From sequence record NC_019500.1: 64,000 nucleotides of DNA; one strand, written 5' to 3'. The position numbers were made by a program, and so were the translations under genes. This DNA comes from Escherichia phage Bp7. A model generated the notes under the pieces. That model was not told the DNA's origin, searched no databases, and saw only the letters and a program-made list of their open reading frames with translations. Positions 4,105-62,295 of this stretch are shown one piece after another (position 1 is the stretch's first letter; every line of letters starts with the position of its first letter).

Positions 4105-5064
4105 ATGATGTTAGTTATTGGTTCTCGTGCACTGCACCACGCTGGTCTGATTGAAAGTAAGCATATCGAAAATTCTGATTGGGATTTCATTGCCGACCAA
4201 GGCTCATGGAATCACTTTAAAGCTCGGATGTTTGGTGCCCATGTTCCTGTGGATAACCCTGATGTCCAGGCTTTTAAATGCATGTACAACGGTAAAGAAA
4301 CCTATTTTGAAGCATATATCGTTCGTGCTCTGACTAACGTACGAGAAATCACCGGTGAGCTCCAAGATGAAGATTTCACCTCAAGTTATCGTCTCCTGAA
4401 ATATGCTGAAAATCATATTAAAAAGGATCGTCTTACAGGTTTCTATTGGGCTACGCCTGATATCTGTCTTGCTATCAAAACCTCTCATCGTTTCCTGAAG
4501 AATAATCCTTTCTTCCTGAAAACTATGTCCCACATCAAATACCTTCGTAATAAAGGTATCACCCTGAACGAAGAACTCCAGGAAATTATGCTGCAACGTC
4601 AAAAAGAAACGTTGAGCTACAAGCACCCTAAATTGGATGTAAACAAATCATCGTTCTTTAATGATACCATTTATACCCTAGACCACGACTCTATCCATGA
4701 AGCAGTGGCATTGGCAGGGCGCCCTGCATATACCTTTTATATGAAGGAAGGTTCTGAAGTCATGACCTCTCGTGAGAAGTTCGAGGCTTTGCCTGAAGCT
4801 ATTAAACTGGCTGGTGTGTATGAAGAAACTTGTGTCCTGGCACTAGAACGTTCACAGGTTCCTAATGACTTCAATATTTCACCATCATTAAGTTTCTATA
4901 TGGCCCTTGAGAAAGTGTGCACCTCAATCACTTCAGGTTGGTTCCGCACTTATGCATGGGAAAACTACCAAGCTGTGGTTAATATGTACAAGACTTTAGG
5001 TGAAAACGACTACATTGAACGGTTTAAGCGTAACCAACATTTAATTCGTCCTTTCGAAAAATAA
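4105..5064 (+). CDS. hypothetical protein (319 aa)
   Basis: ATG at 4105 preceded by TGAGGAAAATATT RBS module; track ORF 4042 start rejected. Confidence 0.6.
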   Translation: MMLVIGSRALHHAGLIESKHIENSDWDFIADQGSWNHFKARMFGAHVPVDNPDVQAFKCMYNGKETYFEAYIVRALTNVREITGELQDEDFTSSYRLLKYAENHIKKDRLTGFYWATPDICLAIKTSHRFLKNNPFFLKTMSHIKYLRNKGITLNEELQEIMLQRQKETLSYKHPKLDVNKSSFFNDTIYTLDHDSIHEAVALAGRPAYTFYMKEGSEVMTSREKFEALPEAIKLAGVYEETCVLALERSQVPNDFNISPSLSFYMALEKVCTSITSGWFRTYAWENYQAVVNMYKTLGENDYIERFKRNQHLIRPFEK

Positions 5065-37448: not shown

Positions 37449-37466
37449 GGGACTTCGGTCCCTTTT
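37449..37466 (+). terminator. rho-independent terminator
   Basis: GGGAC-TTCG-GTCCC followed by TTTT. Confidence 0.7.
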
Positions 37467-37524
37467 GGAGTATAATGATTCATCAACAAACAAAAGACAA
37501 TCACTCGTCTATAAAGGAAATGAA

Positions 37525-40236
37525 ATGCAAGAATTCTATTTGACAGTCGAACAAATCGGTGATAATATTCTCGAACGTTACATCGATAAAAATGGTAACG
37601 AACGTAGTCGTGAAGTTCCATACAAGCCTACAATGTTTATGCATGCTAATCCAGAGCAAGCCGTAAAATACATTGATATCTACGGTAAGGGTTGTGTTAA
37701 GAAAGAATTCGACTCTATGCGTGATGCATCCCAATGGATGAAACGTATGGACGATATGGGTCTCGAAGCCCTGGGTATGGACGACTATAAATTAGCCTAT
37801 TTGTCTGATACCTATCGTAAAGAAATCAGATATGATTCTTCTAAGATTCGTATTGCTAACTTCGACATCGAGGTAACATCTCCTGATGGATTCCCTGAAC
37901 CAGCTCAGGCTAAACATCCTATCGATGCCATTACCCACTACGACTCGATTGACGATAAATTCTATGTATTCGACCTTTTAGTTTCGCCTTATGGTACTGT
38001 TGAAGAGTGGTCGATTAAAATCGCTGAGAAACTCCAAGACGAAGGCGGTGACGAAGTTCCACAAGAAATCATTGACAAAATCGTTTATCTTCCGTTTAAT
38101 TCTGAAGAAGAAATGATGCTTGAGTACTTGAATTTCTGGCAACAGAAAACTCCTGTGATTTTGACTGGATGGAACGTTGAGTCGTTTGACGTACCATACG
38201 TTTATAACCGTCTGAAAAATCTGTTCGGTGAGAACACTGCTAAGCGATTAAGCCCACATCGTAAAACTCGTGTTAAAGTTATCGAGAACATGTACGGTGC
38301 TCGTGAAATCATTACATTGTTCGGTATCTCTGTTCTGGATTATATCGACCTGTATAAAAAATTCAGCTTTACCAACCAGCCTTCTTATTCTCTGGATTAT
38401 GTTTCTGAATATGAATTGAAAGTAGGTAAGTTGAAATATGATGGCCCAATCTCCAAGTTACGTGAGACGAACCACCAACGATATATTTCCTATAACATTA
38501 TCGACGTATATCGTGTAGTGCAGATTGATATGAAGCGTCAGTTCATTCTTCTGAGTTTGGACATGGGTTATTATGCCAAGATGCAGATTCAGTCGGTGTT
38601 CAGCCCAATTAAGACTTGGGACGCTATTATCTTTAATAGCCTTAAAGAACAAGGCAAGGTAATTCCACAAGCTCGCTCACACGTGGTCCAACCTTATCCT
38701 GGTGCTTTCGTTAAGGAACCGATTCCTAACGCTTACAAATATGTAATGAGTTTCGACCTTACATCTCTGTATCCGAGTATCATTCGACAAGTGAATATAA
38801 GCCCAGAGACCATCGCAGGGACATTCGCTAACGCACCGATACATGAATATATTGCCGGAACTGCTCAGCGTCCTAGCGACACCTACAGTTGCTCTCCTAA
38901 CGGCATGATGTACTATAAAGACCGTGAAGGTGTGATTCCGACAGAAATCACCAAGGTATTCTTGCAGCGTAAAGAACATAAAGGTTACATGCTTGCAGCT
39001 CAACGTAATGGTGAGTTAATTAAAGAAGCATTGGAAAATCCTAATCTCTCAGTTGATAGTCCACTGGATATCGATTATCGTTTTGACTTCTCTGACGAAA
39101 TCAAAGCCCAGATTAAAGCACTGTCAGCGCCTTCTTTAAGAGAAATGTTGAAGAAAGCCGAGCTCACTGAAGTTGCAGGTAACACTGCTCAGATTAACCG
39201 TAAGTTGCTTATCAACTCCCTTTACGGTGCACTTGGTAACGTATGGTTCCGTTACTATGACCTCAGGAACGCAACTGCAATCACACTGTTTGGTCAAATG
39301 GCCCTCCAATGGATTGAACGTAAGGTTAACGAATATCTGAATAGCGTGTGTAAGACTGAAAATCAGAAGTTCGTGCTCTATGGTGATACTGACTCCATTT
39401 ATGTTAAGGCAGATGCAATCATCAATAAAGTAGGCGAAGATAAATTCCGTGACACTAACCACTGGGTCGACTTCTTAGATAAATTTGCACGTGAACGTAT
39501 GGAACCAGCTATTGATGCAGGCTTCCGTGAGATGTGTGAGTACATGAACAACAAACAACACTTGATGTTCATGGACCGAGAAGCTATCGCTGGTCCTCCA
39601 CTTGGTTCTAAAGGCCTTGGTGGATTCTGGACAGGCAAGAAACGTTATGCACTTAACGTTTGGGACATGGAAGGTACTCGTTATGCCGAACCACACTTGA
39701 AAATCATGGGTCTCGAAACTCAGAAATCAAGTACACCTAAAGCAGTTCAGAAAGCTCTGAAGGAATGTATCCGTCGTATGCTTCAGGAAGGCGAGGCATC
39801 TTTGCAAGAATATTTCAAACAGTTTAATAAGGAATTTAACGAACTCGATTATGTAAGCATTGCAGCAGTATCCAGTGCTAACAACATCGAGAAATATAAT
39901 GAAGGTGGATTCCCTGGCTCTAAATGTCCGTACCACATCAAAGGTTGCTTAGCTTACATGCGTGCTTCTGCAGGTGATTTGACTATGCCTCGTATCGTTG
40001 ATGGTGAAAAGGTATATGTACTGCCGCTTAAAGAAGGCAACCCGTTCGGTGAAGCTTGTATGGCATGGCCGTCAGGTATTGAACTTCCGGTTCAGATTCG
40101 TGACCAAGTCCTCCGTTGGATGGACTACAACGTACTGTTCCAAAAGACCTTTATCAAGCCTCTGACTGGTTTTACTGAGTCCGCTAAAATCGACTACGAG
40201 AAAAAAGCAACATTATTTGACATGTTTGACTTTTAA
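37525..40236 (+). CDS. 43: DNA polymerase gp43 (family B)
   Basis: 903 aa; N-terminus MQEFYLTVEQIG and exo/pol motifs (FDIEV, YGDTDS, KKRY) as in RB69/T4 gp43; in-frame upstream extension from 37465 rejected. Confidence 0.97.
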   Translation: MQEFYLTVEQIGDNILERYIDKNGNERSREVPYKPTMFMHANPEQAVKYIDIYGKGCVKKEFDSMRDASQWMKRMDDMGLEALGMDDYKLAYLSDTYRKEIRYDSSKIRIANFDIEVTSPDGFPEPAQAKHPIDAITHYDSIDDKFYVFDLLVSPYGTVEEWSIKIAEKLQDEGGDEVPQEIIDKIVYLPFNSEEEMMLEYLNFWQQKTPVILTGWNVESFDVPYVYNRLKNLFGENTAKRLSPHRKTRVKVIENMYGAREIITLFGISVLDYIDLYKKFSFTNQPSYSLDYVSEYELKVGKLKYDGPISKLRETNHQRYISYNIIDVYRVVQIDMKRQFILLSLDMGYYAKMQIQSVFSPIKTWDAIIFNSLKEQGKVIPQARSHVVQPYPGAFVKEPIPNAYKYVMSFDLTSLYPSIIRQVNISPETIAGTFANAPIHEYIAGTAQRPSDTYSCSPNGMMYYKDREGVIPTEITKVFLQRKEHKGYMLAAQRNGELIKEALENPNLSVDSPLDIDYRFDFSDEIKAQIKALSAPSLREMLKKAELTEVAGNTAQINRKLLINSLYGALGNVWFRYYDLRNATAITLFGQMALQWIERKVNEYLNSVCKTENQKFVLYGDTDSIYVKADAIINKVGEDKFRDTNHWVDFLDKFARERMEPAIDAGFREMCEYMNNKQHLMFMDREAIAGPPLGSKGLGGFWTGKKRYALNVWDMEGTRYAEPHLKIMGLETQKSSTPKAVQKALKECIRRMLQEGEASLQEYFKQFNKEFNELDYVSIAAVSSANNIEKYNEGGFPGSKCPYHIKGCLAYMRASAGDLTMPRIVDGEKVYVLPLKEGNPFGEACMAWPSGIELPVQIRDQVLRWMDYNVLFQKTFIKPLTGFTESAKIDYEKKATLFDMFDF

Positions 40237-40238
40237 GT

Positions 40239-40268
40239 GTTTACATACCACAAGGAACGTGGTAGTAT
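40239..40268 (+). promoter_or_regulatory. early promoter
   Basis: GTTTAC, 18 nt, TAGTAT, then CCTATCAACT box. Confidence 0.45.
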
Positions 40269-40298: not shown

Positions 40299-40535
40299 AT
40301 GGAAGCTTTAATCGTTAGTGCTGGTGTTTTAGGATTCGGTTCTCTGGTTATTATGTTCATCGGTTACTTTTTACCATGGATTCTGGCTCTTCTGCGAGGC
40401 ACTCGTAGTAATGTCGGAATTTTCTTCCTTAATCTCCTGTTAGGCTGGACGATGATTGGTTGGGTAGTGGCTTTAATCTGGGCCATCGTCGCTGAACGTA
40501 AATCAAACGCTCAAATCATTATTGTTAAACAATGA
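40299..40535 (+). CDS. imm: immunity (superinfection exclusion) membrane protein Imm candidate
   Basis: 78 aa, two transmembrane helices, directly downstream of gene 43 as in T4. Confidence 0.7.
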   Translation: MEALIVSAGVLGFGSLVIMFIGYFLPWILALLRGTRSNVGIFFLNLLLGWTMIGWVVALIWAIVAERKSNAQIIIVKQ

Positions 40536-40669
40536 AAATAATTATTTTATTTCTTATAATGGCCGCCTTTACCATTTACTGGGCAGTGGCAATTCCACCA
40601 ATGATTCCGACACTAATCATCGGATGGATTATTCTTATAGCACAAATTAAGTATAACTGTTTTAATTGA
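40532..40669 (+). CDS. small membrane protein (45 aa), imm.1-like position
   Basis: ATG overlaps imm stop; fully hydrophobic; below track cutoff. Confidence 0.4.
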   Translation: MKIIILFLIMAAFTIYWAVAIPPMIPTLIIGWIILIAQIKYNCFN

Positions 40670-40676
40670 GGATATT

Positions 40677-41177
40677 ATGAAAAAGTTAATTATCGCAATG
40701 AGTATGCTCCTATCAGGTTGCGCAGTCCAGTACGGTGATGCAGTTTCGGCTGATGAAGTTGGTAAAGCTCGTATCGCAGCTGAACAGAAACAATTCGATG
40801 GCGAAATGAAATTCCGTGCAGGTTCAGGACTTGTGTATACCCGAGCTAATAATCAATGTGGTAATAACTGTGCAAAATATGCTCAACGAGAAATTGAATT
40901 CCAACGTGAACAAGAGTCTAAGCGTGAAGCGGTACTAGCCAAACGCCAGGCAGAAATGAAGCGCCAAGATGATTTGTATAAAAAGCAGAAACTGTATGCG
41001 ATGTGCGTAAACCATATCAATCTACAGATTTCTATCCATGAGGCTCGTTATTACGAAATGCTCGAAACCGAAAGCTTTGATAAGGCCCGTGATTATAAGA
41101 AACAAATCAATAAGCTCAAGACCAAAGTGCCGGCAGCAATAGAACAGTGCATCGAAATCGGTAAAGATAAGATTTAA
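40677..41177 (+). CDS. lipoprotein (166 aa)
   Basis: Signal peptide with lipobox LLSGC; mature part charged and helical. Confidence 0.6.
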   Translation: MKKLIIAMSMLLSGCAVQYGDAVSADEVGKARIAAEQKQFDGEMKFRAGSGLVYTRANNQCGNNCAKYAQREIEFQREQESKREAVLAKRQAEMKRQDDLYKKQKLYAMCVNHINLQISIHEARYYEMLETESFDKARDYKKQINKLKTKVPAAIEQCIEIGKDKI

Positions 41178-41237
41178 GCAGTATCAATTTATTAAAAATA
41201 GTGTATAATGTACCTACATTCACTTGAGGAACAGATA

Positions 41238-42911
41238 ATGAAAAAGGTTGTTATTTTAGGCGCAGGTCTTGGCTCACGGTTGTATCCAATTACTAACGAA
41301 ATCCCGAAGGTATTGGTTAACTACAAACAACATACAGTACTAAAACATTTGTATGATTTGTATAGTAACCAATCAGATGAAATCATTTTGGTAATTCATA
41401 GCAAATTTAATGACCTTGTTAAGGGTTACATTAAATCCATTAACATGATTACCAGTGATAAGCCTAAATTCATTATTCGTAACGTAGATGTTGCCAATGG
41501 TTCAGCTCATGCTATCGATTGCATTGCTGAAGATATCATCGGGCACAACGTCCTGTTTAACTGGTGTGACATCATTCCTGAGGGTCATAAAGTTGAGTGG
41601 GATAACGACTACTGTTATACCTACGGGACTGACTGTCGTTTTACATTTGAAGAACCGTATTTGCGTGAAATTGGTACCGGCGGTGGTGTGGTTGGTTTGT
41701 ATCAGGTGGCTAATTGGACAGGTTTCGACCGTTCTAATTATGGTGAAGACCTTGCCGACAACCTGGATTCGATGGTCTATTTGACTGAACGTAAGCTGGA
41801 CTTTGTAGTTGATGTAGGTGACAAACTGAAACTGGCTAAGGCCCATGAAGATTCCGAAATTAACCGTGAATTTAATAAATTAGAGTTCACTGAGAATCTG
41901 GCTATTAAAGTACCAACTAACGAATTAGGTAAAGAAATCCAATCTAAAGAAATCAATTGGTACAATTCTATTGATTCTGAATTCGTTCCGAGCATTGTAG
42001 ACTTTGCTCCAGGTGAATTCATTAAAATGGAACGTATCTTTGGACGCACCATGGCAGATGCCTACCGGTTTATGTCTAAAGAAACTAAAGTCCTCATGGT
42101 TTATAAGGTCATTAGTGCATTACGTTCATTTGGTGGAACCATCGATAATCCATCTGATGAGCAATGGTATTCTGATGTTAAGAAAGAAGTATTGGACAAG
42201 GTCCTTATTCGTAATGCTTCTATTGCTGGATTGATTGAAGGCTTTGCTCCACAGGGCATTACCCATGTCAATGACTTTAAGGTAGGCGACCCGGAAAAAC
42301 TTCTTCGTCACGCCTTAGAAATTCTGTCTGAACATAAAGAACCGTACCAACTTATTCATGGCGACCCGCACTACAGTAATATTATGTTGTCGGACGAAGG
42401 TAATATTAAAATCATCGACCCACGTGGTTATTTTGGTAATAGTTCTAAAGGCCCTGCGATTTATGATGAAGCTAAGGTGCTTTATTCTATCGATGGCTAT
42501 GACAAATTTAACTCTGACCCTCTATGGGGTGGCTTAACTCGTAACGGAACTCGTGTATTCGTTGATATTGAAAAGGTTATGCCTTTAGATGATATTCCAA
42601 TGTGTACATTTAAGCACAAGCTCTGGATTGCTGTTATCTGGATGGCACTGGCAGGTTACTTTAAAAATAACCCTCTGAAAGCTCTGGGTGCTTATTACAA
42701 TGGGCTATATCAACTGAGTGTGCTGCTGAAGCGGCATCCTCGTAAGCGTAAGCTTATCACAGGTGAATTCGTCGATGAAGTTCGCGACCCTATCACGGCT
42801 CAAATTATCACTCGTTGTCCTGATAAGTGGGTTTTGCTTGACCAGGAAACTGGTGTAAAATATAAACCTACAGGTTCTACCGAACTCCACAAACAATGGA
42901 AGAAAATTTAA
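41238..42911 (+). CDS. bifunctional sugar-1-phosphate nucleotidyltransferase / anomeric kinase-like protein (557 aa)
   Basis: N-terminal ILGAGLGSRLYPITNEIPKVLV (NDP-sugar pyrophosphorylase signature); C-terminal HGDPHYSNIML...IKIIDPRGY (APH/choline-kinase-like catalytic motifs). Confidence 0.7.
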   Translation: MKKVVILGAGLGSRLYPITNEIPKVLVNYKQHTVLKHLYDLYSNQSDEIILVIHSKFNDLVKGYIKSINMITSDKPKFIIRNVDVANGSAHAIDCIAEDIIGHNVLFNWCDIIPEGHKVEWDNDYCYTYGTDCRFTFEEPYLREIGTGGGVVGLYQVANWTGFDRSNYGEDLADNLDSMVYLTERKLDFVVDVGDKLKLAKAHEDSEINREFNKLEFTENLAIKVPTNELGKEIQSKEINWYNSIDSEFVPSIVDFAPGEFIKMERIFGRTMADAYRFMSKETKVLMVYKVISALRSFGGTIDNPSDEQWYSDVKKEVLDKVLIRNASIAGLIEGFAPQGITHVNDFKVGDPEKLLRHALEILSEHKEPYQLIHGDPHYSNIMLSDEGNIKIIDPRGYFGNSSKGPAIYDEAKVLYSIDGYDKFNSDPLWGGLTRNGTRVFVDIEKVMPLDDIPMCTFKHKLWIAVIWMALAGYFKNNPLKALGAYYNGLYQLSVLLKRHPRKRKLITGEFVDEVRDPITAQIITRCPDKWVLLDQETGVKYKPTGSTELHKQWKKI

Positions 42912-43270
42912 TGCATCTGTGTTTTGATATCGATAATACCATTACTCACTGGCAAGATGACCGTGATTACGAAAACTTTAAACCGGACACCGAAATGGTG
43001 TCCATGATTAATAAGCTTTATGATGAAGGGTACGAGATTACCTTGTTCACTGCCCGTGGTATGACTTCATGCGGCCCAGGTCGAATCTTGGTTGAAGTAG
43101 TTCCTGCATTAGTTAAGAACCTTGAAAAGATTGGATTGAAATATCACAATCTGCTTACACATAAGCCGAGTTATACTTTTATCATCGATGACCGAGCAAT
43201 CCGTCCTGACCACTTTAAAGAAATGGTTCGTGAAGGAACTCTTGAAACCTATAAGGCATATCATCCGTGA
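42911..43270 (+). CDS. HAD-superfamily phosphatase (119 aa)
   Basis: HAD motif I FDIDNTIT at the N-terminus; small capless HAD size; ATG overlaps upstream stop. Confidence 0.6.
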   Translation: MHLCFDIDNTITHWQDDRDYENFKPDTEMVSMINKLYDEGYEITLFTARGMTSCGPGRILVEVVPALVKNLEKIGLKYHNLLTHKPSYTFIIDDRAIRPDHFKEMVREGTLETYKAYHP

Positions 43271-43803
43271 AACCAAAAATCATTGTTATCGACGGCCCGG
43301 ATAATTCCGGGAAGTCTACTTTAATTGAATCACTTTTATCTGATAAGAAATATCGTCTTATTGATTTCCCTAAAAAGATTAATGGCAAATGCATTTCATT
43401 AGGGACTGATAATGACAAGGCTTTAGTCGAGACGTTGTATAAGTTTTTAGACCCTAATTTTGTCTACATCTTAGACCGTGGGTATCCTAGTAATATTGTT
43501 TACTCTGGATTCCTTCGTGGTGAAATGGACCCTTATGTAGAACTGGAAGATTGGAAAGGGTTTAAATCTGAATTCAATATTATTGAGGTTATTTTAACCC
43601 GTAATCCACTGGATAAAGACTTTGAAGATGACCTTATTAAATTAACCAAAGATGAGTTCAACCTAACTATCCGGCAATATGAAACATGTTTTGAAAACGT
43701 GTTTAAAATCTTAAATCACGACGGCCATAATAACTTGCTTAACGTCGATATGGTAGAATTAAAACGTCTGAATGAATATATTGAAAATAAGGTGAATAAA
43801 TGA
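43267..43803 (+). CDS. P-loop nucleotide/nucleoside kinase-like protein (178 aa)
   Basis: GTG start overlapping upstream stop; IVIDGPDNSGKST Walker A typical of dNMP/thymidylate-kinase-like enzymes. Confidence 0.55.
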   Translation: MKPKIIVIDGPDNSGKSTLIESLLSDKKYRLIDFPKKINGKCISLGTDNDKALVETLYKFLDPNFVYILDRGYPSNIVYSGFLRGEMDPYVELEDWKGFKSEFNIIEVILTRNPLDKDFEDDLIKLTKDEFNLTIRQYETCFENVFKILNHDGHNNLLNVDMVELKRLNEYIENKVNK

Positions 43804-49428: not shown

Positions 49429-49722
49429 ATGAAAAAGTTATTAATCGCAGCAATCCTTACAGTAGCATCATGTGGCACAGCTCCAGTTACGGCTGGATTG
49501 GATAAAGACCTGTGTGAATGGTCTATGACTGCAGACCAAGAATCAGTCGAACATCAGATTTATGCCGATATCATGAACATCACTAAACGCGACCGCCCTG
49601 ATATGGTTAAAGAAGTGTCAGACCAATTGGCTTCAAGCGGTGTTATGCAATATAACTATGTTTTGTATTGCGATGCCAATTTCGATAACAAAAATATCGT
49701 TAAAGAGGTGACAGGTGAATAA
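49429..49722 (+). CDS. putative lipoprotein (97 aa)
   Basis: Signal peptide with lipobox-like VASC. Confidence 0.5.
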   Translation: MKKLLIAAILTVASCGTAPVTAGLDKDLCEWSMTADQESVEHQIYADIMNITKRDRPDMVKEVSDQLASSGVMQYNYVLYCDANFDNKNIVKEVTGE

Positions 49723-62034: not shown

Positions 62035-62295
62035 ATGAAATATATTAATCGTTCTATTGCAGCTCTCGTATTAGCAGTTTCTTTGGTTGGATGTACTGAT
62101 GCCGATAATGCCACCCGTGTATTGGATGCAAATGGCTACGAACAAATCCAAATCACAGGATACAACCTATTTGGCTGCTCTGAAGATGATTTCCAACGTA
62201 CAGGCTTTATTGCTGTCGGTCCGACGGGTAAAAGGGTTGAAGGAACCGTTTGTTCTGGATTATTCTTTAAAAAGTCGACCATTCGATTTGATTAA
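62035..62295 (+). CDS. putative lipoprotein (86 aa)
   Basis: Signal peptide with lipobox LVGC. Confidence 0.55.
   Translation: MKYINRSIAALVLAVSLVGCTDADNATRVLDANGYEQIQITGYNLFGCSEDDFQRTGFIAVGPTGKRVEGTVCSGLFFKKSTIRFD

What the first reader, a model, noticed from the sequence alone, without database searches (positions are those of the whole stretch)
40532..41177. Lipoprotein and small membrane protein directly downstream of imm: candidate superinfection-exclusion set
Imm is followed by an overlapping 45-aa hydrophobic ORF and a 166-aa lipoprotein with a clear lipobox (LLSGC). Phage lipoproteins next to immunity genes often block DNA injection or receptor use by superinfecting phage, as with T5 Llp and T-even Sp/Imm.
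Basis: inference. Interest (0 to 1): 0.4.

Follow-up and report, generated by a model that had tools for sequence, protein, structure and literature searches.

The report
Phage outer-membrane lipoprotein beside imm
Two small early genes of a T4-like phage, a 45-residue membrane peptide and an outer-membrane lipoprotein, are real, conserved counterparts of T4's uncharacterised genes 42.1 and imm.1, but a role in blocking rival phages is unproven, and both genes also occur in a phage that lacks the neighbouring immunity gene.

Summary
The window is a Dhakavirus (T4-like, about 97% identical to JS98/QL01/C6-type phages). Downstream of DNA polymerase gp43 lie imm (40299-40535), a 45-aa hydrophobic ORF that overlaps imm's stop codon (40532-40669), and a 166-aa ORF with a canonical lipobox, LLSG|C (40677-41177). 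Both small ORFs are conserved and under purifying selection.

They are not new. The 45-aa ORF is the homologue of T4 42.1/Y02C. The lipoprotein falls in the same PHROG family (1754) as T4 Imm.1, an uncharacterised lipoprotein next to imm.

The predicted lipoprotein has five parts: lipid anchor, conserved tether motif, beta-hairpin with QCGNNC, charged stalk helix, and a helical head with two invariant cysteines. The head has been swapped as a cassette in a near-identical phage.

Evidence on the superinfection-exclusion reading is mixed:
- For: imm.1 and imm sit together at a different locus, beside spackle, in Mosigvirus, and an early-type promoter precedes imm here.
- Against: Serratia phage LC53 keeps the lipoprotein and the 42.1 gene but has no Imm anywhere in its genome. 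T4 and T6 Imm.1 are 98% identical despite using different receptors. Nothing resembles Llp, Cor or Spackle.

Function remains untested, and interest is modest.

The parts
40239..40268 (+). T4-early-type promoter-like site (GTTTAC-N14-GTGGTAGTAT) upstream of imm
   Evidence: Sequence. The scan found TTTACA-17-TAGTAT with a TG extension. It fits the T4 early consensus as quoted in the annotation of record OL960577. This is a consensus match only.
40299..40535 (+). imm, the superinfection immunity membrane protein (78 aa); context gene
   Evidence: PF14373 at E 5e-18. phrog_1039 at E 3e-32. 43% identical to T4 Imm.
40532..40669 (+). 45-aa hydrophobic protein, homologue of T4 42.1 / Y02C; its start overlaps the imm stop (ATGA)
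   Evidence: phrog_3610 at E 7e-22. BLASTP against the unannotated T4 49-aa ORF between imm and 42 gives E 3e-13 and 53% identity. VR7 annotates its copy as 42.1. PF26865 Phage_T4_Y02C is recorded for the copy in L015. dN/dS 0.09-0.30.
40677..41177 (+). 166-aa predicted outer-membrane lipoprotein, T4 Imm.1-type (PHROG 1754)
   Evidence: phrog_1754 at E 1.5e-51. The same family takes T4 Imm.1 at E 6e-43, the Melville lipoprotein at E 4e-46 and Mosigvirus Imm.1 at E 1e-28. dN/dS 0.01-0.18 against three relatives, 0.40 against head-swapped L013.
40677..40721 (+). Signal peptide and lipobox (MKKLIIAMSMLLSG|C; Cys15 would be lipidated)
   Evidence: Read directly from the sequence. Gly14 and Cys15 are kept in more than 90% of 23 members. 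Residue +2 is Ala, so outer-membrane sorting is expected under the Lol +2 rule (own knowledge).
40722..40796 (+). Conserved tether motif and short helix (AVQYGDAVSADEVGKARIAAEQ...)
   Evidence: hhalign aligns this motif together with the signal peptide to T4/Mosigvirus Imm.1 at probability 96.6%. Alignment. Helix 27-39 in the AF2 model.
40800..40871 (+). Beta-hairpin with invariant G49, G51 and Y54, then the QCGNNC motif (Cys61, Cys65)
   Evidence: Invariant and near-invariant columns. Strands 42-47 and 51-56 in the AF2 model.
40872..40988 (+). Charged stalk helix (residues 66-104; 19 of 39 residues charged)
   Evidence: AF2 places residues 62-131 in one continuous helix; pLDDT rises from 73 (residues 61-70) to 84-95 beyond residue 70. 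Composition. Stalk length varies between family members.
40989..41174 (+). C-terminal helical head with invariant Cys110 and Cys158 (putative disulfide)
   Evidence: Helices to 131, 134-149 and 151-162, with pLDDT 85-95. C110 and C158 are invariant.
40957..41165 (+). Cassette-like variable segment (lipoprotein residues ~95-163), replaced in the otherwise 94%-identical contig L013
   Evidence: Nucleotide identity in 60-nt sliding windows falls to 35-63% here, against 83-100% in the flanking windows. Imm is 100% identical at protein level in the same contig.
49429..49719 (+). Spackle (sp) homologue; context, the phage's other known exclusion gene
   Evidence: tblastn with T4 Sp: 69% identity, E 5e-45. 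PF25676 T4_Spackle at E 1.6e-42.

Best explanation
Identity (about 0.85). ORF 40532-40669 and ORF 40677-41177 are the Dhakavirus versions of two conserved, uncharacterised T-even early genes. The first corresponds to T4 42.1/Y02C, a very hydrophobic inner-membrane peptide. The second corresponds to T4 imm.1, a lipoprotein.

Anatomy (predicted, not measured). The lipoprotein would be exported, lipidated on Cys15 and sorted to the inner leaflet of the outer membrane, because residue +2 is Ala. Its mature 152 residues would then hang into the periplasm in four parts:
- a conserved tether motif;
- a beta-hairpin with QCGNNC;
- a roughly 40-residue charged stalk helix;
- a helical head, probably stapled by a Cys110-Cys158 disulfide.
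The N-terminal half is conserved across genera. The head is fast-evolving and has been exchanged as a cassette.

Function (inferred, about 0.35-0.4). The genes are transcribed early together with imm. I think the lipoprotein is a periplasmic arm of the phage's envelope-protection and superinfection-exclusion programme. It would hold a variable binding head in the space between the outer membrane and the peptidoglycan, which an incoming T-even tail tip must cross. It would act alongside Imm (inner membrane) and Sp (periplasm) but independently of both. The 42.1 peptide would be a separate small membrane factor, translationally coupled to whichever gene precedes it.

No step of this function has been demonstrated.
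For: Identity:
- PHROG hits for both ORFs.
- T4 Imm.1, Mosigvirus Imm.1, the Melville lipoprotein and the Klebsiella Roth16 lipoprotein all match phrog_1754.
- The post-cysteine motif GxVVxxS/DxVGK is shared with T4 Imm.1 (hhalign probability 96.6%).
- There is a weak profile signal on the mature domain once signal peptide and tether are removed (6.7 bits, single-comparison E 5e-4).
- The late Cys pair and the C-terminal NxC[VIM] ending are shared.
- The 42.1 peptide matches the T4 ORF at E 3e-13, with the same ATGA overlap with imm.

Location and timing:
- A lipobox with a non-Asp +2 residue.
- An early-type promoter at 40239-40268 and no terminator-like site before 41350.
- An early promoter is annotated upstream of imm.1 in Mosigvirus.

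Link to exclusion:
- The lipoprotein lies within one gene of imm in six lineages despite different gene orders.
- imm.1-imm lie together next to sp in Mosigvirus.

Recognition-type evolution:
- The head cassette is swapped in L013 while the flanks stay mostly 90-100% identical and Imm is unchanged.
- P0004 and P0005 diverge from the window protein mainly in the C-terminal third.

Structure: AF2 mean pLDDT 80, with the head at 85-95.
Against: - There are no functional data. I found no paper on imm.1 or 42.1 function in the held library.
- LC53 has the lipoprotein, 42.1 and Sp but no Imm in its whole genome. PM2 has none in its first 50 kb. The link to Imm is therefore not obligate, and adjacency may only reflect shared residence in the variable gp43-gp42 interval.
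- In the arabinose-type phages both genes sit among DNA-modification genes.
- From my own knowledge (Lu and Henning 1989), plasmid-borne imm alone excludes T4, so Imm does not need Imm.1.
- Homology to T4 Imm.1 outside the N-terminus is weak: BLASTP E 8.4, no Pfam DUF5481 hit, and hhalign aligns only 31 columns.
- Fold searches gave only generic helical matches.
- The disulfides and the monomeric stalk are inferred, not shown.
Confidence: 0.4

Rival explanations
1. Envelope takeover unrelated to rival phages. The lipoprotein binds a host periplasmic or outer-membrane component through its conserved N-terminal half. Candidates include peptidoglycan-associated proteins, the Lpp/Pal/OmpA tethers, or a periplasmic protease or nuclease. 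This would stabilise or remodel the envelope during infection, for example during prolonged lysis inhibition. The head would be a structural module under relaxed constraint.
For: - The gene is retained in a phage without Imm.
- The conserved part is the N-terminal half, not the head.
- Imm.1 is 95-100% conserved across about 500 Tequatrovirus records.
- The predicted architecture is a long stalk helix hanging from the outer membrane.
Against: - No similarity to any known peptidoglycan-, OmpA- or Lpp-type domain.
- A precise cassette swap of the head between near-identical phages looks more like selection on recognition than drift.
- imm.1 lies with imm beside sp in Mosigvirus.
Confidence: 0.3
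2. Counter-defence. The lipoprotein neutralises a host or prophage envelope-located anti-phage factor, such as a prophage exclusion protein or an outer-membrane protease. The variable head would track variable host targets.
For: - The head is diversified and exchanged.
- The gene is expressed early.
- It sits in a variable early-gene region rich in accessory genes.
Against: - No match in PADLOC, although that library holds defence proteins rather than anti-defence proteins.
- No known envelope-located target.
- Near-invariance across hundreds of Tequatrovirus isolates from many hosts.
Confidence: 0.12
3. Llp/Cor-like receptor masking. The lipoprotein binds the phage's own outer-membrane receptor from the periplasmic side and inactivates it. 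This would prevent superinfection and stop progeny being lost on cell debris.
For: - It is an outer-membrane lipoprotein made early, as T5 Llp is (PMC9586334, listed).
- A weak PHROG hit to Cor, E 0.015.
Against: - The Cor hit covers only signal-peptide residues 1-18.
- No Llp-like sequence or fold was found.
- T4 and T6 use different receptors (OmpC/LPS versus Tsx; own knowledge) yet have 98% identical Imm.1.
- The gene lies next to the DNA polymerase gene, not next to a receptor-binding gene.
Confidence: 0.07
4. Chance ORFs: the small ORF, the lipoprotein ORF, or both, are not expressed genes.
For: The 45-aa ORF is short and hydrophobic, and its T4 counterpart is not annotated in the T4 RefSeq record.
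Against: - The ORFs are conserved from T4 to Serratia and Pectobacterium phages, with a conserved C-terminal K(Y/F)(E/N)C(F/I)N ending.
- dN/dS is well below 1.
- Both have PHROG families, and a Pfam family is on record for the copy of the small ORF in L015.
Confidence: 0.01

Closest known systems
T4 Imm.1 (gene imm.1; Pfam DUF5481; PHROG 1754), an uncharacterised lipoprotein between genes 43 and imm
   Same: - Same PHROG family.
- Lipobox plus the post-cysteine motif GxVVxxSxVGK.
- A late Cys pair and a C-terminal NxC[VIM] ending.
- Neighbour of gp43 and imm.
- Function unknown in both.
   Different: - 166 aa versus 125 aa.
- Placed downstream of imm and 42.1, not upstream of imm.
- Has the QCGNNC hairpin and a long charged stalk, which T4 lacks.
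- Does not reach Pfam DUF5481.
- Pairwise BLASTP is not significant.
T4 42.1 / Y02C (PF26865 Phage_T4_Y02C; PHROG 3610)
   Same: - 45-49 aa and very hydrophobic.
- Shares the P-x-M-[IV]-P-T turn and the K[YF][EN]C[FI]N end.
- Its start overlaps the imm stop.
   Different: None of substance. The N-terminal 15 residues are not conserved.
T5 Llp (lipoprotein that blocks FhuA; PMC9586334)
   Same: An early-expressed phage outer-membrane lipoprotein acting from the periplasmic side.
   Different: - No sequence or fold similarity was found.
- Mature size is 152 aa and helical, whereas Llp is much smaller (own knowledge).
- It is not linked to a receptor-binding gene.
- The family does not track receptor use.
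Cor (phi80/N15/T1-type exclusion lipoprotein; PHROG 1119)
   Same: A lipoprotein signal peptide.
   Different: The match is limited to residues 1-18 (E 0.015). There is no similarity in the mature domain.
T4 Spackle (Sp; PF25676), a periplasmic inhibitor of the gp5 tail lysozyme
   Same: - A small, helical, cysteine-containing periplasmic protein made early.
- Next to imm.1-imm in Mosigvirus.
   Different: - The window carries a genuine Sp elsewhere, at 49429-49719.
- The lipoprotein has no PF25676 match.
- Sp is described as soluble rather than lipid-anchored (own knowledge).

Membership tests
T4 Imm.1-type lipoproteins (PHROG 1754) | Full-length match to the family profile | tested here: met
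   E 1.5e-51, residues 1-163 on profile positions 2-147 of 148. T4 Imm.1 scores E 6e-43 and Mosigvirus Imm.1 E 1e-28 against the same profile.
T4 Imm.1-type lipoproteins (PHROG 1754) | Match to Pfam DUF5481 (PF17578), the model built on T4 Imm.1 | tested here: not met
   No hit at E <= 1. T4 Imm.1 itself scores E 5e-72. DUF5481 appears to cover only the Tequatrovirus/Mosigvirus branch.
T4 Imm.1-type lipoproteins (PHROG 1754) | Homology of the mature domain to T4 Imm.1, beyond the signal peptide | tested here: inconclusive
   hhalign aligns only 31 N-terminal columns (probability 96.6%). A profile of the mature domain without the tether gives 6.7 bits and single-comparison E 5e-4. BLASTP E 8.4.
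T4 Imm.1-type lipoproteins (PHROG 1754) | Lipobox, and a position in the gp43-imm-gp42 interval | tested here: met
   Lipobox LLSG|C. Gene order 43-imm-42.1-lipoprotein, compared with 43-imm.1-imm-42.1-42 in T4.
T4 42.1 / Y02C (PHROG 3610, PF26865) | Sequence match to the family and to the T4 ORF | tested here: met
   phrog_3610 at E 7e-22. BLASTP to the T4 ORF at E 3e-13. PF26865 is recorded for the L015 copy. The local Pfam copy returned no such family even for the T4 and L015 copies, so it apparently lacks that model.
Bacterial-type lipoproteins (signal peptidase II substrates) | Positively charged n-region, hydrophobic h-region, [LVI][ASTVI][GAS]C lipobox | tested here: met
   MKK / LIIAMSMLL / L-S-G-C. 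Conserved across the family.
Bacterial-type lipoproteins (signal peptidase II substrates) | Lipidation and globomycin-sensitive cleavage | not testable with these tools
   Needs labelling and globomycin experiments.
T5 Llp-type receptor-blocking lipoproteins | Sequence or fold similarity to Llp | tested here: not met
T5 Llp-type receptor-blocking lipoproteins | Specificity tied to the phage's own receptor | tested here: not met
   T4 and T6 Imm.1 are 98% identical although the two phages use different receptors (own knowledge). This was tested on the T4 branch only.
Cor exclusion lipoproteins (PHROG 1119) | Match over the mature protein | tested here: not met
   E 0.015, residues 1-18 only.
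Spackle (PF25676) | Match to the T4_Spackle profile | tested here: not met
   No hit for the lipoprotein. The true Sp is at 49429-49719, E 1.6e-42.
Obligate Imm partner (the 'exclusion set' as a unit) | Co-occurrence with imm in every genome that carries the lipoprotein | tested here: not met
   LC53 whole genome: the best Imm-profile hit is 13.8 bits, inside the ligase gene. PM2 first 50 kb: nothing.

The most novel reading that the evidence does not exclude
Imm.1-family lipoproteins could be a third, outer-membrane-anchored arm of T-even superinfection exclusion, in addition to Imm and Sp. A conserved anchor, hairpin and stalk would present an exchangeable head that recognises a component of incoming related phages, such as the tail tip, tape measure or ejected proteins. 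Head swapping between phages would then set who excludes whom.
Probability: 0.25. Interest if true: 0.6.

Novelty: new member of a known kind. Interest (0 to 1): 0.3.

Why it matters
T4 is one of the best-studied phages, yet imm.1 and 42.1 have no assigned function, and I found no paper on them in the held library.

This analysis adds three things:
- The Dhakavirus lipoprotein belongs to the Imm.1 family. The family extends across several Tevenvirinae genera (Escherichia, Salmonella, Serratia, Pectobacterium and Edwardsiella phages) and to an unclassified Klebsiella T4-like phage.
- The protein has a conserved anchor half and a cassette-swapped head.
- It persists in a phage without Imm.

Together these give a concrete, testable target for asking whether T-even exclusion has an outer-membrane component.

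If the function turns out to be ordinary envelope housekeeping, the result is only a better annotation. That would include correcting database labels such as 'iduronate sulfatase' and 'capsid and scaffold protein'.

Tried and rejected
1. Direct homology to T4 Imm.1 by BLASTP is not significant (E 8.4). Profile-profile comparison aligned only the N-terminus. I rely instead on PHROG co-membership, shared motifs and synteny.

3. Large-scale homologue searches show a small family with no bacterial or annotated relatives: 11 clusters by word-index search, 18 clusters at E <= 1e-3 among 1.84 billion representatives and 13 IMG/VR loci. T4 Imm.1 retrieved only close relatives.

4. PADLOC and NCBIfam gave nothing for the three proteins.

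5. Literature searches for imm.1 were dominated by journal-abbreviation noise and produced no relevant paper. DUF5481 gave zero hits. The T4 genome review PMC150520 is not held.

6. I considered whether the conserved tether motif binds Imm, and rejected it as unlikely. PM2 keeps the motif but has no Imm in its early 50 kb. Melville has Imm adjacent but lacks the motif.

7. I considered whether the head co-varies with Imm, and rejected it. L013 has a swapped head but 100% identical Imm.

8. A first lipobox scan of the whole window missed the 40677 ORF because my hydrophobicity cut-off was too strict. The lipobox itself is clear.
Full report
**What the window is.** The 1-kb stretch around the finding is 95-97% identical to about 47 phage records, including QL01, MX01, WG01 and C6. 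Phage C6 is classified in the T4-like genus Dhakavirus (Straboviridae, Tevenvirinae). The genes lie on the + strand in this order:
- DNA polymerase gp43 (37465-40236)
- imm (40299-40535)
- a 45-aa ORF (40532-40669)
- a 166-aa ORF (40677-41177)
- a fused nucleotidyltransferase/kinase (41208-42911)
- a HAD-like protein and a dNMP-kinase-like protein

**The observation.**
- imm matches Pfam PF14373 at E 5e-18.
- The ATG of the 45-aa ORF overlaps the imm stop codon (ATGA), and the peptide is extremely hydrophobic (GRAVY 1.65).
- The 166-aa ORF follows a GAGGA ribosome-binding site and begins MKK-LIIAMSMLL-SG|C, a textbook lipobox. Residue +2 is Ala. Under the Lol sorting rule, where Asp at +2 means retention in the inner membrane (own knowledge), this predicts an outer-membrane lipoprotein facing the periplasm.
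- Both ORFs are real genes. They match PHROG families 3610 (E 7e-22) and 1754 (E 1.5e-51). They are annotated in relatives.
- Pairwise dN/dS is 0.09-0.30 for the small ORF. For the lipoprotein it is 0.01-0.18 against three relatives and 0.40 against the head-swapped contig L013.

**What the small ORF is.** T4 has an ORF of 49 aa between imm and gene 42 that its RefSeq record does not annotate. It has the same ATGA overlap with imm. It aligns to the window peptide at E 3e-13 with 53% identity, and shares a P-x-M-[IV]-P-T turn and a K-[YF]-[EN]-C-[FI]-N end. VR7 annotates its copy as 42.1, and Pfam PF26865 'Phage_T4_Y02C' is on record for the copy in L015. In the Serratia, Edwardsiella, Enterobacter and Pectobacterium phages and in Escherichia phage EcS1, the same peptide follows an arabinose-5-phosphate isomerase gene instead of imm.

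**What the lipoprotein is.** T4 gene imm.1 lies between 43 and imm. It encodes a 125-aa lipoprotein (…GLAG|CVAQGPVVNQSDVGK…).
- T4 Imm.1, Mosigvirus Imm.1, the Salmonella phage Melville 'putative conserved lipoprotein' and a Klebsiella phage Roth16 protein all match phrog_1754, as the window protein does.
- Profile-profile comparison aligns the signal peptide together with the post-cysteine motif GxVVxxSxVGK at probability 96.6%.
- A profile of the mature domain with signal peptide and tether removed still gives a weak hit to T4 Imm.1 (6.7 bits, single-comparison E 5e-4).
- Both branches keep a late cysteine pair and an NxC[VIM] C-terminus.
- On the other side, pairwise BLASTP is not significant and Pfam DUF5481, built on T4 Imm.1, does not reach the window protein.

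I therefore treat it as a divergent Imm.1-family member, with probability about 0.85. The family is small and appears only in T4-like phages and viral metagenome contigs: 18 clusters at E <= 1e-3 among 1.84 billion representatives, 129 phage records for this branch and 657 for the T4/Mosigvirus branch.

**Anatomy.** With a 26-sequence alignment, AlphaFold2 gives mean pLDDT 80. The low-confidence segments are residues 1-3 and 5-23, which cover the signal peptide and the start of the tether. Beyond them the model has:
- a short helix, residues 27-39;
- a beta-hairpin, strands 42-47 and 51-56;
- one long helix, 62-131;
- two further helices, 134-149 and 151-162, that pack into a helical head (pLDDT 85-95).

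Invariant residues across the family are G49, G51, Y54, C110 and C158. The lipobox Gly-Cys and the QCGxNC motif are nearly invariant. Residues 66-104 are 49% charged and vary in length between members. I read this segment as a stalk. The Cys61-Cys65 and Cys110-Cys158 disulfides are inferred. No solved or viral predicted structure resembles the protein beyond generic helical hairpins.

**A swapped head.** A metagenomic Dhakavirus contig, L013, is 94% identical to the window over 8 kb. Identity collapses to 35-63% over 40957-41165, the segment encoding lipoprotein residues ~95-163, and is 83-100% in the flanking windows. Imm in that contig is 100% identical at protein level. P0005 likewise diverges from the window protein mainly in its C-terminal third. 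The head is therefore an exchangeable module and the N-terminal half is the conserved core.

**Does the context support an 'exclusion set'?**

Evidence for:
- The lipoprotein lies within one gene of imm in T4 and T6 (43-imm.1-imm), Melville and Roth16 (43-lipoprotein-imm-42), and Dhakavirus and Gaprivervirus (43-imm-42.1-lipoprotein).
- In Mosigvirus, imm.1 and imm lie together at a different locus, between dmd and sp, behind an annotated early promoter.
- In the window, a T4-early-type promoter (GTTTAC-N14-GTGGTAGTAT, 40239-40268) precedes imm, and no terminator-like site follows up to 41350.

Evidence against:
- In four genera, Kanagawavirus, Winklervirus, Mosugukvirus and Kagamiyamavirus, the order is 43-lipoprotein-arabinose-5-phosphate isomerase-42.1-nucleotidyltransferase, with no imm.
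- I assembled the whole 172,075-bp genome of Serratia phage LC53 and found no Imm. The best profile hit was 13.8 bits, inside the ligase gene. The same profile scored 128.9 bits on the window. LC53 does have Sp.
- Phage PM2 has Sp but no Imm in the first 50 kb, and its lipoprotein still carries the tether motif.
- Imm occurs in many phages outside the T4 group, none of which appear among the organisms listed in the lipoprotein searches. From my own knowledge (Lu and Henning 1989), plasmid-borne imm alone excludes T4.

The three genes are therefore neighbours, and probably co-transcribed, but they are not an obligate functional unit.

**Tests of specific mechanisms.**
- Receptor masking, as by T5 Llp (PMC9586334), is unlikely. 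There is no similarity to Llp. The only Cor similarity is in the signal peptide. T4 and T6, which use different receptors (own knowledge), have 98% identical Imm.1.
- The protein is not a Spackle variant. The window has a genuine sp at 49429-49719.
- It matches no PADLOC or NCBIfam model.

**Best reading.** The shown steps are gene reality, family membership, the lipobox, conservation pattern, head swapping and context statistics. The predicted steps are outer-membrane anchoring and the stalk-and-head architecture. The inferred step (about 0.35-0.4) is that the lipoprotein is an early periplasmic factor of the phage's envelope-protection and superinfection programme. It would present a variable head in the space between outer membrane and peptidoglycan and act independently of Imm. 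The main rival (about 0.3) is host-envelope remodelling through the conserved N-terminal half, unrelated to competing phages. Counter-defence (about 0.12) and receptor masking (about 0.07) follow.

**Novelty and score.** The genes are known but uncharacterised T-even genes, so this is a new member of a known kind. No paper in the held library addresses imm.1. The finding is a reasonable experimental lead rather than a surprise. I score interest at 0.3. The most novel reading not excluded, a third outer-membrane arm of T-even exclusion with swappable specificity, has probability about 0.25 and would deserve about 0.6.

Noticed in passing
window 41208-43803 (and onward to the gene-42 homologue): Directly downstream of the lipoprotein lies a sugar-nucleotide gene cluster. 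It comprises a 567-aa fused nucleotidyltransferase/APH-type kinase (annotated start probably the ATG at 41238), a HAD-like 124-aa protein that PHROGs labels 'phosphoheptose isomerase', and a dNMP-kinase-like 178-aa protein. In relatives the same locus also carries an arabinose-5-phosphate isomerase. This suggests arabinosyl-type hydroxymethylcytosine modification, as described for RB69 (PMC6024577), in place of T4's glucosyltransferase.
   Followed up: partly
window 49429-49719 (+): A genuine spackle (sp) homologue: 69% identical to T4 Sp, PF25676 at E 1.6e-42. The phage therefore has both classical T-even exclusion genes.
   Followed up: yes
window 62035-62295 (+): A second predicted lipoprotein, 86 aa (MKYINRSIAALVLAVSLVG|C…), matching phrog_902 of unknown function at E 6e-35.
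   Followed up: partly
L013 about 4280-4490, corresponding to window 40957-41165: A metagenomic Dhakavirus contig that is 94% identical overall has the C-terminal head of the lipoprotein replaced by an unrelated-looking sequence (35-63% nucleotide identity). The flanks stay mostly 90-100% identical, and 100% just downstream.
   Followed up: yes
L002 6228-6377 (-) = T4 NC_000866 26227-26376: The T4 RefSeq record does not annotate the conserved 49-aa ORF (42.1/Y02C) between imm and gene 42. It labels imm.1 'iduronate sulfatase', which looks like a spurious product name. Two Dhakavirus records label the lipoprotein 'capsid and scaffold protein' (H42 and H50).
   Followed up: partly
L016, L018, L020 and L019 (Serratia phage LC53, whole genome): LC53 has no Imm homologue anywhere in its 172 kb. 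It keeps Sp, the Imm.1-type lipoprotein and the 42.1-like peptide. PM2 shows the same picture over its first 50 kb.
   Followed up: yes
L009 2937-4030 (Mosigvirus SA35RD): imm.1, imm and sp form one contiguous block behind an annotated early promoter, away from gene 43. No 42.1-like ORF is annotated in this block, and the 63-nt gap between imm and sp leaves no room for one.
   Followed up: partly
P0021 (135-aa family member): One family member has lost the lipobox cysteine (MKKILIASLFMVAFGVNA…) and looks like an ordinary secreted protein. If so, the lipid anchor is not indispensable for every member.
   Followed up: no
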